Shown: in pieces, positions 3,114-12,212 of the stretch | Layout: every line of letters starts with the position of its first letter | How positions within the stretch are numbered: the first letter of the stretch is position 1 | Assembly: GCA_964016885.1 (NCBI GenBank) | Contig: OZ024743.1 | Coordinates: 81,840,001 to 81,904,000 of the forward strand | Length of the DNA: 64,000 nucleotides | Direction: 5' to 3' | From: Eledone cirrhosa | Lineage: Eukaryota | Notes under the pieces: generated by a model | Database searches by the model: none | What the model was told of the DNA's origin: nothing | Seen by the model: only the letters and a program-made list of their open reading frames with translations | Made by a program: the position numbers and the translations under genes

Positions 3114-3451
3114 CACATACCCACACGTATAAATATATATACATATATATATTCTCCTTATAGATATATACATATATACACACACACATAGATACATACA
3201 TAAACACACACACACTCACACATGATATCCGCACTATAAGTACAAGGACGCAGAGATACATGTGTCTAAAATCGTATACACATGAATGCATTAAATATAG
3301 TTCTAGTGGAAAGTTGCCAGGCTGTGACCCATGCCTGACCTAGCTGTGAGACCAATAAAATTATGAACTATATTGACCAGTAGCGGTCACTACTGGTCAC
3401 TGATAACGCTGAAACAGTTAAAACTTCCATCAGGTCAATTCTAGTTGAAGA

Positions 3452-3490
<39 letters not shown>

Positions 3491-3599
3491 TGTCCTCCTG
3501 TGTGTATTATATATAAATATATGTATATATATATATAGGTATCCTCCTGTGTGTATTATATATATATATATATATATATTGTCGTTCCTGGGACATTTA

Positions 3600-3706
3600 G
3601 CCCTAGGAAGGGAAAATGCTTCTCTGATGAGCTTTGGTTTTCCATCATAAATCCATCGGATTTATGAGGTTTTACAAAGCGAAACTGATCAGTAAGGGCC
3701 ACTAGG
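3600..3706 (+). ncRNA. Type I hammerhead ribozyme (canonical core)
   Basis: CTGATGA 3624-3630; stem II GCTTTG/CAAAGC extended by TCATAAATCC/GGATTTATGA; GAAA 3681-3684; palindromic stem III ACTGATCAGT; GTA triplet 3692-3694; stem I TTCT/AGGG plus distal CCTAG/CTAGG. Confidence 0.85.
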
Positions 3707-3779
3707 AGAGGTAAACATTTATATTATATTTTTTAATGTATTTTGAAAAATTGATTGAATTTTACTTGTTCTGCTTATC

Positions 3780-3845
<66 letters not shown>

Positions 3846-3846
<1 letters not shown>

Positions 3847-4572
3847 CAGTGAAAATTTTAGTAAGTAAGTTAATTTTTTTGATTTTTTAAAATTTTCTTA
3901 TTTTACGTCTTTTATATTATTGTTCTGCATCCTCCTGCATCGAACCACCTAGGTACTATGACATAACCTGTGTATTTGCTGGCATTAGCGTACATCTGTA
4001 CGCATATGTTAGTAGATATACTAAATTCTCTATATTTATCTCCAAATTACTTATTTGTCGAGCAAACCTGCCAAAACCACTACTAATTTATTGGTGTGAT
4101 AGTAGGCTTCTGTCATCTTACCATCCCACTCCTACCGACTAGCCTCAGTGTCACGTGATTGATTCTTTAGAATCTGCCATTTGACCAGAGGCAGCGAGGA
4201 TTTCAGTGCATGGAATTCAGTCCCCGCTAGCTGTTCCATCTACCGAATTATTATTATTTTTATATGAGTCCCCCGGTGTCCGCGCATTGCCTGGAGACTT
4301 AGCTGAGAATAGACTCCCTGATGACGTAATGAATTCTCGAGAGTTAGATTACGTAACTGTCTTTATCCCATTGCAGAAACTAATTAGTTGGAGTGAAAAT
4401 TTTAGTAAGTAAGTTAATTTTTTTAATTTTTTAAAATTTTCTTATTTTACGTCTTTTATATTATTGTTCTGCATCCTCCTGCGTCGAACCACCTAGGTAC
4501 TATGACATAACCTGTGTATTTGCTGGCATTAGCGTACATCTGTACGCATATGTTAGTAGATATACTAAATTC
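3846..4572 (+). mobile_element. Retrozyme-like non-coding element, ~1.3 tandem units of 544 nt, between (TA)n tracts
   Basis: Near-identical ~180-bp direct repeat 3848-4030 / 4392-4572, with a hammerhead fold at the unit junction. Confidence 0.75.
4313..4394 (+). ncRNA. Type I hammerhead ribozyme with insertion between stem II and GAAA
   Basis: Stem I ACTCC/GGAGT; CTGATGA 4318-4324; CGTAAT/ATTACG stem; 22-nt insert; GAAA 4376-4379; palindromic ACTAATTAGT; GTT triplet 4387-4389. Confidence 0.7.
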
Positions 4573-4602
4573 TATATATATATATATATATATATAGATA
4601 TG

Positions 4603-7600
4603 TTTCTTTTATTTGCCACCAGGGCATCAAAAGTGGGACAAGTACAAGGGGGGAGTTTACACAAAAAGGCGTCCTCAATAAGGAGGAGGCAATAACAATA
4701 TATAAAAATAATATGTAACAAAAAATAAAATTTATAACAAAATCCTCAATAGAGAGGAGGCGCCTTGGGGGGTCGCACACACCCCCGAAAAAAGTGTGCA
4801 ACCCTTTTCCTCAGGAGCACAGAGAGAGGGTGCTCCCTCGTTCCTTCCTCTTTTCCACCTACAGGCTTATGTAAAGAGAAGGCCCATTCACACGGGCCAT
4901 TCTCACCACTTTCACCCACCTTTCATAAAAACGACTGGGGTGGAGCACCTCTCTCTCCATCCTGATCCTTCTTCCGAAATGATATCGGAAGAAACGGACC
5001 AGTTGTTGGCCAGAGAGAAAGGTGCCTGACCTCAGTCCTTTCAGACGCGTCCACCATACAACCTCTTTCGCCATGGCTATTACGCACAGAAACACCGCCT
5101 CTGCTTCATCTTTGAAGGGGGGAGGCGGCTTGATCATTACAATAGACTCGGTGGTCAACCGGATCGGTCCCACCCTTGACAGCAGTTGTTCGACATAGCC
5201 CCACAGATCGGCTACGCCCGAGCAGTGTACCAATGCGTGTGCAACGGTTTCCTCGTCGCACACGCATCTGGGACAGATCTTTTTGGCGGGGTCCCTACCC
5301 GGGCGCCCGTGTCTGTAGAGCTTTTCTCGAACGGGTAGAGCCCCTCGGTAGCACTGCCAGGCCAGGGACTTCTGGAAGTTGTCCATAGGTCCCGGGCTGA
5401 ATGTCCTACCGAACAGGCTGGCCAGTTCGTCCTCCTCCATGTCTAGGGCTTCTCCGAGGGCGTCGTCGCACCTGCTGCGTACCAGCCCTCTATAGAATGT
5501 TTCGGTGGAGTCTCCACTGATAACCGGATCCGCCTGCCAGAGGGCGGTGAGCGCCTGGGCACACTCAGTGTGCCAGGCGCCCAGTTTTCTCGGTCTTTGC
5601 TTGACCCAGGATTGCAGCTCGGTGAGTGAGACGAGTCTGGGAAAGGTTCGTCTCACAAACGAGGCCCACACCGGTTGACCGGTGAGGAATACGTAGAGGT
5701 GCCGTAGCCTTAATGCGTGTTTACGCATCATTAGCCACGGCATCCCCAGCCCTCCTTTCGAAGGGTGTTGACAGCAGATGGATCTCCTCACCATAGGAGC
5801 CCGCCTCTTCCAAAGGAATTGGAAGAGCGCGCGCTCCATCTTGGCGAGGGTTTCCCTTGGGCAGGGCACTACGGTCAGGCGGTAGTAGATGACGGACGCT
5901 ATATAAGTGTTCGCCACCTCCGCCCGACCTTTCAGGGATAGTTTGCAACTGGCCCACTTCTGGGTCAGTGCAAACACCCTGTTCGTAACCTCCGCCCAGT
6001 TCTTCTCCACCTGGAGGTCCGGTCCGAACCAGACCCCGAGCAACTTCACCGGGCCCTCCGTCCAGCGTCCGACGACGCCATCGGAGGGCATCGGTCTGCC
6101 CCTCCACGTGCCGATTTGCAAACCGATCGACTTGTCCCGGTTCAGCTTAGCCCCTGTGAACCTTTCGTACTCCTCCAGTAAGGTGCCGACCGCCTCGATT
6201 TCGGAGGCCGTCGACACCATTACTGTCACGTCATCGGCGTAGGCCGACACCGCTTTCCGCAATCCCAGTTCCAAAGGGATGCCCTGCAACAACTCCAACT
6301 TCCGCAGTAGTGGCTCGAGAGTCAACACCTACAGACGGGAGGAGAGAGGGCACCCTTGTCGGATGGACCCCGCGATTTTGAACGGCTCCGAGAGGTAGCC
6401 GTTCACCTTGACCCTAGAGCAGATGCGGCTGCTGTGCATAGCAGTGATCCAGCCCCTGAAAACGGGTCCGAAGCCTGCCGCCGCTAGCACCGCATCCAGG
6501 TAACCACGGTCGACCCTATCGAACGCCTTAGATTGATCCAAGTTGATCAGAGCCACACCAAAGCCGGGTTAGTTCCCAACCCTCTCTATGATGTATCGCA
6601 TTAGATGGAGGTTGTCATGGATGGATCTGGACGGGATAGCACATGTCTGCGCATCTCCCACCAGGTTGCCCACGACAAGCGCCAACCTCTTTGCTAGCAC
6701 CTTGGCCAAAATCTGTAACTCTGTATTTAGCAGAGTTATGGGCCTGAAGTTACTTATTTCGTCACCCTTGTTCTCGTCCTTCCTCACTAGCGTGACTACG
6801 CCCTTGGTCACTGCACAGGGAATTCTCCCGTTCTGTTGCCAGTTGCAGTAGACCGCCTCGAGGAGATCGGGGAACAAGTCCGGCATAGCTAGATACAGTT
6901 CGTATGGAAGACCATCAGGACCCGGGGATTTGCGTTTGCCGCATTGGCTCAGCATGTCCTCTATCTCAGCGGCTGAAATCGGCTCCTCGCAGGACTTCGC
7001 CTCCCTGTCCGAGAGACGCGGCAGGCCGTCGAGGTATGGACCGTAGTCCACATCCCCAACCGGCTCCCCGCCCCTTCCGAACAATCGGGCAAAGTGCTTT
7101 TGAAAGGCCTCACACATCTGCTTAGGTTCAAGGATCGCCCGTCCATCCTGGTCTCGCAAAGACCGGATGGTGGATTTAGTTCCACTCTTGGCTTCTGTCA
7201 CGCGGGCCCAGGTAACAGCTTTGGTCCCCTCGTTCCCTAGAGCACGTATTTTACTTCGGACAACGCAGCCTTCGTGCTTCGCGTCGAAAAACTGGCTCAA
7301 AGCCGTTCTCGACGCTAACACTCTGGCCACGTCGCCGCTTCTAATTGCCTCTTCTACTCTATCTATCAGCTTCCTTTCCTTCCTATTCCTATCCGCAGCT
7401 AGAACCTTACTAAATTCTATCGAGACTAATCTAATCTCTCTCTTTAGAGATACCCACCACCTGCTGTTGACGATCGCTCCAGTCAACCGTTCCTTAACTA
7501 ACGTACTAATCCAGTCCCTGTAAGCTTTACTAGCCGGTAAGGACAAGTTCAGCTTCCAGTAACCGGGGCCCTGTCTATGCGTTCTATCAAGGTTGACCAT

Positions 7601-8745
7601 GCAGGTCACCAACTTGTGGTCTGAATAGCCAACCATGAGCATTACTGGACAACTTAAAAGTCCCTGTCCTTATTTCTAACTAAAAACCTATCTAGGTACG
7701 ACCTAGATGATCCGCTGCGATTTGACCAAGACCAGGTTGGCACCGTCGGAAAATCTAGTCGAAATCTATCTGCCAGGTCAAATCGGCCGAGTAACCCCTT
7801 GAGGCTGTTGCACCCCTCTCTATCGGGACATGCCCCTGCATAGTCCCAACGTGCATCCAGGATACCATTCCAGTCCCCCACTAAAAGCAGGGAACGGGAC
7901 GTCCCTAGAAAAGACTCCAGACGCTGGAAAAAGTCGGGCCGCTCTGACCCAAAAGGGGCATATGCGGCTACCAGCCTAAAGGCTTCACCTTCACCACTGC
8001 CAAGGTCCAGCACCACCAGTCGACCCCCTGGGTCCAAGTGAACTATCTGTGTGGCAAGACCCAGATGTTTTTGCAGCAGAACGACAACCCCACCCCCACC
8101 TCCGGGCTGACAGAGAGATGTGTGCATCTCAAAGTCGTCAAAGGTGGGGGCTAGCTGTCGCATGCTGTTGATCCGGGCCTCGCAGATAACCATCACATTT
8201 ATAGATCGCGACCTGAGGTCATTTAGAAGCATTGCTTGCTTCCAAGATGAGCCCAGGCCACGCGCATTTAGACACCCTACTCTTAGCACAGCCATGTTGG
8301 TGGTAAAGAGAAAAGGCACTTACATCTCTGCGTCCCGGGAAGCGGGCCGCTCAATTTCCATGCTGGTTGGGGATGGGTTATTGGGTGGGGTGGTGGTTTG
8401 TGGAAGTGAAGGGGCATCGGTGTGTTGTGGGGTTGGGGTGTTTGTGGTTGAGTGGGTGTCTGGGTGGGGGGTGGGGAATTTTTTTAGGAGGACGCGGTTG
8501 ATTGGCTTGGCGGGGGGGGGGGGGGGGCATGTCCTCCGCGAAATTTATTTTCAACGTTTTATATAAGTTCATTGGGACTTTAATCATTTGTAAATGAGGT
8601 AGTCCCACAGCAGTTATAGAGTTAGGCCCTTCAGTTTGGACCGAAGGATTTGACGAAATTGTGTTCATTAGTTCTTTGTTGTTTGTGTTCATGTATGTAT
8701 ATTGTAAAGTCTTTTTTTGCATAGCAGTTAGTGTTGTGTGACGGG
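4603..8745 (-). mobile_element. Tx1/L1-clade LINE, copy 1 (ORF1 C-terminus plus frameshifted ORF2)
   Basis: APE endonuclease (LNARGL, LVGDWN, SYLDR, SDHKLV), RT (NFRPITLLNTE, LDQSKAFDRVD, RQGCPLS, AYADD), C-terminal CPRC..ETVAHALVHC; AATAAA near 4607-4612 on minus. Confidence 0.93.
4859..8295 (-). pseudogene. ORF2 (endonuclease-reverse transcriptase) of Tx1 copy 1, split by about three frameshifts
   Basis: Consecutive ORFs 7654-8319, 6569-7642, 6329-6556 and 4859-6328 form one colinear protein. Confidence 0.9.
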
Positions 8746-9384
8746 GAGGGGTGGTTTGTATATAGTTAGTGTTCTCTTGGGGAGGGTTATGCAGTAAGCA
8801 ACTGAAGTATATTACCAATTCATAGACGTAGAAACAATACAGTTTTATACCTGAAGCTACAGCGAGATGTATCTATCTAATATTTCAGTGTTTCTGCGTA
8901 TATTTCACTAGTCCTTAGATGTCTGATAGGTTTATAAAGCTTTTCGTTACATATTTCCTCTTGGATTGGTGGGTAGTTTCTGAGGAAGATCTCCACGAAA
9001 ATAAAACCTCCAGTCTAGCTGTTCATACTTTTTCATTATATATGTATACGTGAATAAGTGATATTCACATCTCTAAATATCAATATATCTATCATCACAT
9101 ACATCTCACTGCTTCTGTTAAAACACCTGTACACTTCGTACATAAACGCCCTCGCTTCTGCTGAACTCCACTAGACGGCGCTGAACATCAGTCTTCTATT
9201 CATAGCTGAGACTTTCAAAATGTTTATTTATCAAACATACCATATATCTTTAGAAATACGAAATTCACATACTACTACTACTACTACTACTACTACTGCT
9301 ACTACTGTTTTGCTGCTATGTATGTGTGTATACATATACATATATATATATAAATATAAATTCAGCGAGAGTCGCATTTCGGCG

Positions 9385-9442
<58 letters not shown>

Positions 9443-9447
<5 letters not shown>

Positions 9448-12212
9448 TTGCCACAGGGGCGTACAAAAATGGGACATTACAAGACGTGACGGTGGAGGTT
9501 TTACATAAAAATAACTTTAACATTATTATTACATATAGTTTAAATAACAATAAACTATATATAATAAAATAACAATTTAAATCCCCAATAGGGGGAAACG
9601 TTACTGCAGGGTTGTTTTACACCACGTGGATAGAACAACCCTCAACACCAGGAACACGTTTTGTAGGTGTTCCTGTCTTCCCTCTGTTTATCTTCCTCAA
9701 CCTACAGGTTTATATACAGAGAAGGCCCATTCACTCTGGCCATTTTTTCCACATTCACCCACCTTTCAGCGAATTTACTGGGATGTAGCACCCCTCTCTC
9801 CACTCTCACCTTCCTTCTGAAGTGATACTTAAAGAAGGGGATAAATTGTTGTCCGGAGAGAAAGGTGTTTGCTCTCACTCCTTTTAACCTCGTCCACCAT
9901 ATTACCTCTTTCGCCATAGCCACCAGACAGAGGAAAACTGCCTCTCCTTCGTTCTTAAATGAAGGCGGCGGGGTGATCCTCACGATGGACTCGGCTGACA
10001 AATGGATGCGTCCCACACATGACAGCAGCTGTTCGACATAATTCCACAGGTCGGTCACTCCTGGGCACTGAACATGCAGACGGTTTCGATGTCCTGCTCG
10101 CATCTTGGAACAGGTCCTTTTGGCAGGATCTCTGCCAGGGCGTCCGTGCCTGTAGATTTTGTCTCGAACTGGTAGAGCTCCTCGGTAGCACTGCCAGTCC
10201 AGAGACCTCTGGAAGTTATCCATAGGCCCTGGACGGAAAGTCCTCCCGAACAGACTGGTCATTTCGTCCTCCTCGATGCCTAGAGTTTCCCCGAGAACGT
10301 CGTCGCACTTATCCTCCACTAATCCCCTATAGAATGTAGAAGTGGAGTCTCCGCTGATTGCCGTTTCCGCTTGGTAGAGGGCTGTGAGCGCCTGTAGGCA
10401 TTCGAGGTGCCAGACACCCATTTTCGGTCTTTGCTTGACCCAGGACTGCAGCTCTGTTAGTGAGGCGAGTTGTGGAAGAGCTTGTCTCACAAACGACAGC
10501 CACACCGGTTCGCCGGTCAGGAATACCTGGAGATGGCGTAGCCTCAGCACATGTTTGCGCATCATCAACCACGGAATGCCCAGCCCTCCGTTAGAAGGGT
10601 GTTGACAACAGATGGATCTCCTCACCAATGGAGCCTGTTTCTTCCAGAGGAACTTGAAGAGTAGGCGTTCCATTTTGGTAAAGTATTCGCAGGGGCAAGG
10701 CTCGACTGTCAAGCGGTAGTAGATGACGGACGCTATGTAAGTGTTCGCCACCTCCGCTTGACCTTTCAAGGAGAGTTTGCACTCATCCCACTTCTGGGTG
10801 AGTGCAAACACCTTATCCGTCACCCCGGAAGTCTCGACCGAACCAGACCCCGAGCAATTTCACCGGTCCTTCCATCAAGCGTCCAACGACACTATCGGAA
10901 GGCATGGGTTTGCCTCTCCATGTGCCGAGTTGCAAACCGACAGGCTTGTTTGGGTTTAGTCTTGCTCCTGTCAAAGTTTCGTATTCCTGTAATAGGTTGC
11001 CGATTACCCTGATTTCCGAGGTTTTCCACACCATTACCGTCATGTCGTCGGCATAGGCCGACGCTGCTTTCCGCAGTCCTGGTTCGATCGGGATGCCCTG
11101 CAACAGCTCCAACTTCCGCAGTAACGGCTCGAGAGTCAGTACATACAGAATGGAGGAGAGAGGCCATCCCTGACGGATGGAAGGCATGATTTGGAATGGC
11201 TCTGATAGGTAGCCATTCACCTTGACTGCCGAGTAGATGCTGGTGTGCATGGCAGCGATCCAGCCTCTGAAGACGGGACCGAAGCCGGCCGCCTTGAGAA
11301 CTGCTTCCAAGTATTGATGGTCGACCCTATCAAATGCCTTAGACTGATCTAAATTGATCAGAGCCCCAGCGAAGCCAGGTTTACACCCTACCCTCTCTAT
11401 GATGTATCGCATGCGGTGGAGGTTGTCGTGTATGGACCTGGTCGGGATTGCACACGTTTGGGCTTCCCCTACCAGGTTCTCGACGACAAGTGCCAGCCTT
11501 GCTGCTAACAACTTGGCCAAAATCTTTAACTCTGTGTTGAGCAGAGTTATGGGCTTAAAATTGCTTATCTTCTCCCCCTTTTTCTCATCTTTCCTGATCA
11601 GCGTTACTACGCCTCTGCCTACAGAACTGGGAATCCTCCCGTTCTGCTGCCAGTTGCAGTAGACCGCTTCGAGGACGCCAGAGAACAAGTCTGACAAACC
11701 TATGTAAAATTCATAGGGTAGACAATCTAAACCGGGTGATTTGCGTTTCCCGCAGCGGCGTAGGGCATCTTCTATTTCACCCGCTGTGATCGGCCTTTCG
11801 CAGCTCTCCGCATCCGTGCTCGAGTGTCGCGGTACGCCGTCGAGGTAGGAGCTTAAGTCCATCACCTCGCTCGATGTACCGCTTTGTCTGAACAGTTGTG
11901 TAAAATGCTGCTGGAAGGCCGTGCACATCTGCTTGGATTCAAGTATAATGCGTCCATCTTTGTCTTGCAAAGACCGAATTGTGCTTTTGTGCCACTTTTC
12001 GCTTCTGCCACTCGGGCCCAGCTAACAGCTTTGGCTCCCTCGTTTCTTAGAGCACGTGTTCTACTTCTGACAATACAACCTTCGTGTTTCACGTTGAAGA
12101 ACTGGTCTAGTGCCGTTCTCGCCGCTAGCACGTCAGCTGTACTGCCATTCCTAAGTGCCTCTTCTATTTTAGCTACCAGTTCCTTTTCATTTTTTTTTTT
12201 TCTAAAGCTACT
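9443..12212 (-). mobile_element. Tx1/L1-clade LINE, copy 2, 5'-truncated
   Basis: ORFs 10813-11970 (RT, AYADD) and 9702-10823 are homologous to copy 1; 3' UTR ends in AATAAA next to (TA)n. Confidence 0.93.

What the first reader, a model, noticed from the sequence alone, without database searches (positions are those of the whole stretch)
3846..4572. 544-nt retrozyme unit whose 5' end coincides with its ribozyme cleavage site
Seen: the insertion starts gcagtgaaaattttag (3846), matching ggagtgaaaattttag (4390) immediately 3' of the predicted GUU cleavage site (4389), and runs ~1.3 units. No ORF is present. Inference: reverse transcription of a self-cleaved, greater-than-unit-length (tandem or circular-derived) RNA, which would be a genomic footprint of in vivo cleavage.
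Basis: partly seen in the sequence, partly recalled or inferred. Interest (0 to 1): 0.8.

Follow-up and report, generated by a model that had tools for sequence, protein, structure and literature searches.

The report
Penelope-driven retrozyme records ribozyme cleavage
This is one of thousands of copies of a 544-base non-coding repeat that carries a predicted self-cutting hammerhead RNA and is likely pasted into TA runs by the enzymes of Penelope-like retrotransposons; about one in ten long copies, this one included, begins at the predicted cut site, a likely DNA record that the ribozyme cuts in living cells, while most copies run straight through it.

Summary
Observation largely confirmed: a 544-nt unit (3846-4389) plus a 183-nt repeat (4390-4572), a type I hammerhead supported by covariation, no meaningful ORF, (TA)n on both sides. 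The boundary is 3845/3846 (one extra T), and the 'c' at 3847 is a SNP. It is a family of thousands of copies with Penelope-like (PLE) insertion anatomy. 3' ends are fixed at two sites, 68 and 183 nt after the cut site (395 of 425 arms). All 129 classifiable head-to-head pairs have one end of each kind. Neptune-type PLEs in the genome show the same pattern.

5' ends are spread over the unit, and 300 of 343 arms keep an uncut junction. There is still a sharp peak at the cut site (11 observed, 2.65 expected, P=1e-4), mostly at the upstream ribozyme (11 of 113 arrivals versus 2 of 204). My first sample alone was not significant. RT stalling at helix III is not excluded, and no RNA data were available.

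Verdict: a new member of a known kind (non-LTR retrozyme / non-autonomous PLE) with unusually informative junctions. The scan earlier noted only an unrelated rotifer hammerhead pair.

The parts
3783..3844 (.). (TA)31 microsatellite, left target flank
   Evidence: no target-site duplication can be discerned inside the run
3845..3845 (+). single extra T at the 5' junction (non-templated, or the base 5' of the scissile bond)
   Evidence: the same (TA)n-T-GGAGTG junction occurs in independent loci L305/L393 and L400
3846..4389 (+). complete 544-nt unit, from predicted cut site to predicted cut site (u1-u544)
   Evidence: units of 522-558 nt across subfamilies
3908..3918 (+). site A (about u68), one of two fixed 3' termini of the family; read through in this copy (second instance about 4457)
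   Evidence: 200 of 425 arms end here
3970..4021 (+). predicted long hairpin just 5' of site B (second instance about 4514-4565); candidate RT-binding element
   Evidence: RNAalifold on 31 copies: 3 pairs with changes on both sides, many G-U shifts; function inferred
4313..4394 (+). type I hammerhead: stem I 4313-4317/4390-4394, CUGAUGA 4318-4324, C4325 and A4375 unpaired, helix II 4326-4331/4369-4374 with an inner hairpin, GAAA 4376-4379, predicted cut after 4389
   Evidence: cleavage not assayed
4378..4389 (+). perfect 12-nt palindrome over helix III, predicted to allow a dimeric hammerhead
   Evidence: sequence; cofold of two copies -51.1 vs 2 x -17.5 kcal/mol
4390..4572 (+). partial second unit u1-u183, ending at site B (the PLE-type 'tail' end; inferred RT start)
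   Evidence: 195 of 425 arms end here
4573..4601 (.). (TA)n microsatellite, right target flank

Best explanation
The element is a high-copy, non-coding tandem repeat with a predicted hammerhead ribozyme and two fixed 3' ends in (TA)n; it is likely copied into DNA in trans by the reverse transcriptase and GIY-YIG endonuclease of a Neptune-type Penelope-like element, and this copy likely comes from a transcript whose upstream ribozyme had cut itself. Shown: family, copy number, covariation, two 3' termini, the one-A-one-B rule in inverted pairs, and the 5' peak at the cut site. Inferred steps: (1) tandem loci give multimeric RNA; (2) the PLE protein binds the last, uncut hammerhead plus tail; (3) it nicks (TA)n; (4) it primes at site A on one target strand and site B on the other, and the two cDNAs are joined head-to-head by microhomology, or only one arm is kept, as here; (5) most cDNAs stop at random or cross intact hammerheads, but about 10% of those that reach the upstream hammerhead run off exactly at its cut 5' end, and up to roughly a further fifth end 2-45 nt short of it, possibly trimmed during joining. 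Cleavage is therefore a side branch that sets the 5' end of some templates, not a required step.
For: Copy number and identity. Hammerhead covariation. 3' ends: A 200, B 195, other 30 of 425 unique arms. Head-to-head pairs: AB 129, AA 0, BB 0, and 23 with an unclassified end, of 152. 244 of 343 arms are in inverted pairs. Two internal RT start sites 3' of the hammerhead, giving the 'tail', were shown in vitro for a PLE (PMC11167929). G000 holds 10,596 GIY-YIG candidates, 150 scored. Fetched copies encode RT plus C-terminal GIY-YIG with a C-x4-C-x2-C linker, the type linked to Neptune microsatellite bias (PMC8557442). L213 and L224 show the same one-short-one-long termini in (TA)n. Cut-site peak: 11 vs 2.65 expected; 25.8 stops per 1000 nt at the upstream junction vs 1.67 in the preceding body and 4.85 just beyond it; 11 of 113 vs 2 of 204 arrivals (P=3e-4); 57 of 156 arms stop in u45-u543 on the second pass vs 18/174, 15/180, 13/140 and 11/121 in control windows. 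L119, L292 and L319 and two (TA)n junctions start at u1 with a non-T base before it, and L012 and L119 show a short duplicated start (u1-11, u1-16) followed by a second start at u1 (read by eye). Such starts occur in several subfamilies and at inverted junctions without a TA run, so a single master copy does not explain them.
Against: The first sample (about 200 arms) gave 3 vs 1.64 at the cut site, P=0.23; the signal comes from the mid-body samples (10 vs 1.19 before one alignment artefact, L003, was removed). The 3-nt window was chosen to allow for the ambiguous T. A broader peak at u7-15 (26 vs 8.3) is at least as strong and overlaps a self-complementary AAAATTTT, so structure or microhomology also shape 5' ends. 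Of the 11 genome-wide (TA)n junctions at the cut site, 6 are short first-junction copies, so the asymmetry is not absolute. No pLTR homologous to the element was found in 40 PLE loci, so the helper family is not identified. In the anole PLE, hammerhead mutants still insert and no reads end at the cut site (PMC11167929). PLE hammerheads cleave weakly in vitro (PMC4209133), and 8 of 9 Xenopus retrozyme dimers showed no cleavage (bioRxiv 2026.07.22.740005).
Confidence: 0.7

Rival explanations
1. Same PLE-driven family, but the peak at the cut site is an RT stall at the 3' base of helix III (a 12-bp duplex in the dimer fold) on uncut RNA, so it says nothing about cleavage.
For: The palindrome ends exactly at 4389 and the dimer fold is favoured. 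Seven of the 11 exact stops can be read with the preceding T. Other excesses at u7-15 and u474-476 show that non-cleavage stops exist.
Against: A stall should act at both junctions, but rates are 2 of 204 vs 11 of 113. Several starts are blunt at u1 after a non-T base, and two show repeated starts at u1. Stops fall to background just upstream (u534-542: 8 vs 7.7).
Confidence: 0.2
2. The classical retrozyme cycle: a self-cleaved monomer is ligated to a circle, PLE RT rolls round it, and the peak marks the ligation junction or a re-opened circle.
For: In-register multimers: 105 of 343 arms have at least 2 junctions and 16 have at least 3. L112 has two 4-mers with no substitutions between units. 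The neighbouring family has a roughly 20-unit array. The circular unit folds better than 40 shuffles (z -4.3). Circles are documented for coral, mussel and axolotl retrozymes (PMC7229834).
Against: On a monomeric circle the same junction is met each time, yet stop rates differ about tenfold. The hazard does not jump after 544 nt, where strand displacement would start (B arms, second pass, u73-183: 0.8-1.75 per 1000 nt). There is no excess of errors at the junction (u544 1/229, u1 4/229). This rival can coexist with the best explanation for the long arrays.
Confidence: 0.25
3. The match of this particular copy's 5' end to the cut site is coincidence within random 5' truncation.
For: Background expectation is 2.65 of the 11 exact stops, so about a quarter of such copies are chance. 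The copy has an extra T and a SNP at the junction.
Against: Family-wide enrichment. At the upstream junction the rate is 5 to 15 times the local background.
Confidence: 0.12

Closest known systems
Non-LTR retrozymes of animals (Cervera and de la Pena 2020, PMC7229834; Li et al. 2026, bioRxiv 10.64898/2026.07.22.740005)
   Same: Non-coding, low-GC tandem units, each with a type I hammerhead; dispersed monomers to multimers; co-occur with PLEs; proposed PLE mobilisation.
   Different: The unit is longer than the typical 150-450 nt, though inside the 51-972 nt range of Li et al. Helix II is long with an inner hairpin. Circular RNA is untested here. In the parts I read, neither paper maps insertion ends, fixed 3' termini, inversions or 5' ends against the cut site.
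Penelope-like elements, Neptune/Poseidon type: pLTR, inverted 5' arm, 'tail' (PMC8557442, PMC3846280, PMC11167929, PMC4209133)
   Same: [quoted passage not shown]
   Different: No ORF. The tail is about 115 nt instead of 30-40 nt. The literature calls the tail optional or often on one end, whereas here all 129 classifiable pairs have it on exactly one arm. There is an extra A before G12. There is no sequence homology to the pLTRs in 40 PLE loci tested.
R2 and related LINEs with 5' HDV-like ribozymes (existence cited in PMC4209133; that the ribozyme sets the 5' end is recalled, from no call)
   Same: A ribozyme cut can define the 5' end of inserted copies.
   Different: Different ribozyme and RT class; there it sets the full-length end, here only a minority class.

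Membership tests
Type I hammerhead ribozyme | Conserved core CUGANGA / GAAA / UH with three helices | tested here: met
   Core invariant in 40 distinct copies, helices covary; extra C and A flank helix II; no Rfam model match
Type I hammerhead ribozyme | Self-cleavage after H17 | not testable with these tools
   Indirect only: 5'-end peak
Non-LTR retrozyme | Short non-coding tandem unit with one type I hammerhead per unit, at least two consecutive in some loci | tested here: met
   46 stretches with two or more cut motifs among 120 loci; no long ORF
Non-LTR retrozyme | No LTR, PBS or PPT; dispersed high copy number; low GC | tested here: met
   Thousands of dispersed matches; ends set by sites A and B, not LTRs; no separate PBS/PPT search was run
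Non-LTR retrozyme | Expressed as linear and circular monomer RNA | not testable with these tools
   Needs RNA; none was available (see Tried and rejected)
Penelope-like element (non-autonomous) | Partial tandem and inverted 5'-truncated arm | tested here: met
   244 of 343 arms in head-to-head pairs
Penelope-like element (non-autonomous) | Two 3' termini (tail) downstream of the hammerhead | tested here: met
   395 of 425 arms; AB 129, AA 0, BB 0
Penelope-like element (non-autonomous) | Sequence homology to the pLTR of an autonomous PLE | tested here: inconclusive
   None in 40 of 150 scored GIY-YIG loci, of 10,596 candidates; junction chimeras with Neptune pLTRs in L190 and L067 may be nested insertions
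Penelope-like element (autonomous) | ORF with RT and GIY-YIG | tested here: not met
   No such ORF in the unit

The most novel reading that the evidence does not exclude
The insertion junctions of this family are a genomic record of two steps of the PLE/retrozyme cycle that I did not find described. First, hammerhead self-cleavage occurs in the germline and creates the 5' end of a minority of templates while the protein-bound 3' hammerhead stays uncut. Second, every double-armed insertion is made by obligate asymmetric dual priming, one target strand at each of the two RT start sites. This would be direct structural evidence that animal retrozymes are mobilised by PLE machinery.
Probability: 0.55. 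Interest if true: 0.72.

Novelty: new member of a known kind. Interest (0 to 1): 0.52.

Why it matters
The role of hammerheads in Penelope-like elements is called unclear in the literature (PMC8557442), and the one in vitro system found cleavage dispensable and no RNA ends at the cut site (PMC11167929). The helper of animal retrozymes has been proposed from co-occurrence and pLTR similarity. Here a short, young, high-copy family gives countable junctions that speak to both questions. It also supplies a compact substrate (hammerhead, two start sites, TA target) for testing dual priming in vitro. The class of element itself is known, and the cleavage signal is a minority class with a live rival.

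Tried and rejected
Rfam at two thresholds found no ribozyme family. No RNA holder was listed; the two runs laid were contigs of unknown kind and say nothing on expression. No exact pattern match in metagenome contigs. A search for a homologous autonomous pLTR in 40 PLE loci was negative. A Neptune ORF had no PDB sequence match. A ligation scar at the junction was not found. The A9>C hotspot (18 cases) first suggested an RNA modification; it is never shared between units of one insertion and is mirrored by T12>G across the AAAATTTT palindrome, so I read it as a DNA mutation hotspot. Recurrent unit-specific differences, meant to separate linear from circular templates, were uninformative. AT richness alone does not explain the stops (0.96 per 1000 nt in AT-rich windows elsewhere). 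A peak at u474-476 as a possible transcription start appeared in the first sample (8 vs 1.3), not in the second. The first breakpoint mapping was spoiled by a reference holding microsatellite and was redone. The top-score loci are biased to full units and entered the hazard test only where a motif list also held them. In the neighbouring family, 3 loci start at the cut site after (TA)n, but no control was run and TA microhomology blurs it. One paper search used a guessed host name; the host was not identified and nothing rests on that guess. PMC5850863 is not held.

Full report
Observation. The window holds, between two (TA)n runs, a 544-nt unit (3846-4389; positions u1-u544) and a second copy of its first 183 nt (4390-4572), 97% identical. 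A type I hammerhead core lies at 4313-4394 with a predicted cut after GUU at 4389. Rfam does not detect it, and one copy folds no better than shuffles, so I tested it on relatives. On 40 distinct copies, chosen by hand for diversity from 107, the core is invariant and helix II and its inner hairpin covary: 94.4% of 833 cells pair and 95 cells change on both sides; 0 of 500 shuffles reach this, and slid controls pair 38-47%. Related sequences inflate the shuffle test, so the slid control and the invariant core carry the weight. At the 5' junction the (AT)n run ends at 3844, 3845 is one extra T, and the C at 3847 is a variant also found in internal units of four other loci.

Family. G000 (3.0 Gb) gave 2232 candidates, of which 40 were scored; the listed full-unit matches are 95-100% identical. 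Exact motif counts are 3771, 1041, 48 and 474, reversed controls 0. Subfamilies differ by up to about 23%, with units of 522-558 nt. I sampled loci by motif: most of the first 100 listed places for three motifs, and all 48 places of the fourth. Arms were mapped to the nearest natural unit. Arms under 45 nt, under 90% identity or running off a locus were dropped, and 492 arms reduced to 425 unique. For the breakpoint test I also dropped arms with an unclassified 3' end, arms not linked to a sampling motif, and the window copy, leaving 343.

3' ends. 200 arms end at site A (about u68), 195 at site B (about u183) and 30 elsewhere. 244 of 343 arms are joined head-to-head to an inverted partner. 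Of 152 unique pairs, 129 are A+B, none A+A or B+B, and 23 have an unclassified end. The two arms usually come from one lineage (2.3% apart, versus a median of 9.8% between random loci). L162 and L185 are paired with a different hammerhead family. This is the Penelope 'tail' anatomy. Frangieh et al. (PMC11167929; main text parts 1-2 of 4 read, supplement text searched without hits, figures not seen) showed that a PLE protein nicks both strands of AT-rich DNA and starts RT at two internal sites 3' of the hammerhead. Craig et al. (PMC8557442, passages) and Arkhipova et al. (PMC3846280, passages) describe inverted arms with a tail optionally on one end. G000 has 10,596 GIY-YIG candidates (150 scored). 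Fetched copies encode RT plus C-terminal GIY-YIG with a C-x4-C-x2-C linker, and L213 and L224 have one short and one long terminus in (TA)n. The neighbouring 485-nt family shows A+B in 2 of 2 pairs. No homologous pLTR was found in 40 PLE loci, so the helper is inferred, not named. A conserved hairpin precedes site B. B arms show a small post hoc excess of stops near site A (7 in 1584 nt vs 5 in 6872 nt), as twin priming on one RNA would give; this is weak.

I counted stops per base at risk, starting the risk after the sampling motif. Ends are spread over the unit, and 300 of 343 arms cross at least one intact junction, 105 two and 16 three. The first two samples (about 200 arms) gave 3 stops at u543-u1 against 1.64 expected (P=0.23). 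The two mid-body samples (168 arms) gave 10 against 1.19. Combined, and after removing one alignment artefact (L003), there are 11 against 2.65 (P=1e-4). Just upstream the rate is background (8 vs 7.7). The stops sit mainly at the upstream hammerhead: 11 of 113 arrivals against 2 of 204 at the one nearest the RT start (P=3e-4). That is the architecture of the window copy, and L305, from another subfamily, repeats it with the same junction. A genome-wide pattern found 11 (TA)n junctions in the three positions at the cut site against 9 in nine control positions (P=0.004; two fold-back loci on C17 left out). Of these 11, six are short first-junction copies, four have one unit plus tail, and one is unclear. 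By eye, several junctions are blunt at u1 after a non-T base, and L012 and L119 start twice at u1, which suggests a physical RNA end. A broader excess lies at u7-45 (26 vs 8.3 and 46 vs 23.1), partly at a self-complementary octamer. On the second pass 57 of 156 arms stop within 47 nt of the cut site, against 8-10% in four control windows.

Mechanism. Most likely a multimeric transcript is bound by a Neptune-type PLE protein at its last, uncut hammerhead and tail. It is primed at A and at B from the two nicked strands of (TA)n and copied until random truncation or, in a minority, until the 5' end left by cleavage of the upstream hammerhead. Binding, priming, helper identity and cleavage are inferred; the end distributions are shown. 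The main rival for the peak is stalling at the palindromic helix III, which a dimer fold would strengthen. A circular template remains possible for the long arrays but does not explain the asymmetry, and no ligation scar was seen.

Comparison and novelty. It meets the sequence criteria of a non-LTR retrozyme (Cervera and de la Pena 2020, PMC7229834: passages and Discussion read; Li et al. 2026, bioRxiv 10.64898/2026.07.22.740005: parts 1-3 of 5 read, supplements closed and may list related families). The hammerhead has the PLE traits given by Cervera and de la Pena 2014 (PMC4209133, parts 1-2 of 4 read). The class is known. In six searches and the texts above I found no mapping of retrozyme insertion ends against the cut site and no count of a strict one-of-each tail rule. 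Subscription papers and Arkhipova 2006 and 2017 were not available and may hold such data.

Noticed in passing
window 3581-3782 (+), hammerhead 3619-3700: 5'-truncated copy of a second, younger retrozyme family: 485-nt unit, 1280 candidates, top 40 at 98-100% identity, two 3' termini (about u90 and u190), and a roughly 20-unit array at G000:C1:382.89 Mb in which three units share a four-SNP haplotype.
   Followed up: partly
window 4600-8870 and 9440-12021 (-): Two related, broken APE-RT non-LTR retrotransposon copies (Exo_endo_phos, RVT_1, zf-RVT), about 75% alike near their ends, both ending at (TA)n; a different RT class that shares the target.
   Followed up: partly
L190:1936-2765: Retrozyme arm fused without a TA run to the long terminus of a Neptune pLTR (family of L213), whose inverted arm ends at its short terminus; nested insertion or co-insertion.
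   Followed up: partly
L067:440-2057: Truncated Neptune copy (end of GIY-YIG plus pLTR) fused directly to a retrozyme arm; possible template switch.
   Followed up: partly
L162:1966-2600; L185:1541-3870: Head-to-head pairs between the retrozyme and a third, short-helix hammerhead family with 1560 candidates, suggesting one insertion event can use two RNAs.
   Followed up: partly
unit positions u9 and u12 (window 3854, 3857): Mirror-image A>C and T>G mutation hotspot in the AAAATTTT palindrome (18 and 7 cases), never shared between units of one insertion; the A/T tract at u30-46 flips between units.
   Followed up: partly
L213:6560-6620: The Neptune pLTR has a hammerhead-like motif with a changed core (UUGACAA/UUGACGA ... 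GAAAGGUC), resembling the U3-A8 variant of PMC4209133; helix I is weak and it was not tested.
   Followed up: no
flanks of L003-L117: At least five further hammerhead families with palindromic helix III lie near (TA)n runs; one shares the TAGTAAGT ... CTTATTT motif downstream of the cut site.
   Followed up: no
window 3222-3453: Another short element between microsatellites with an internal inverted repeat; no hammerhead core found; not identified.
   Followed up: no
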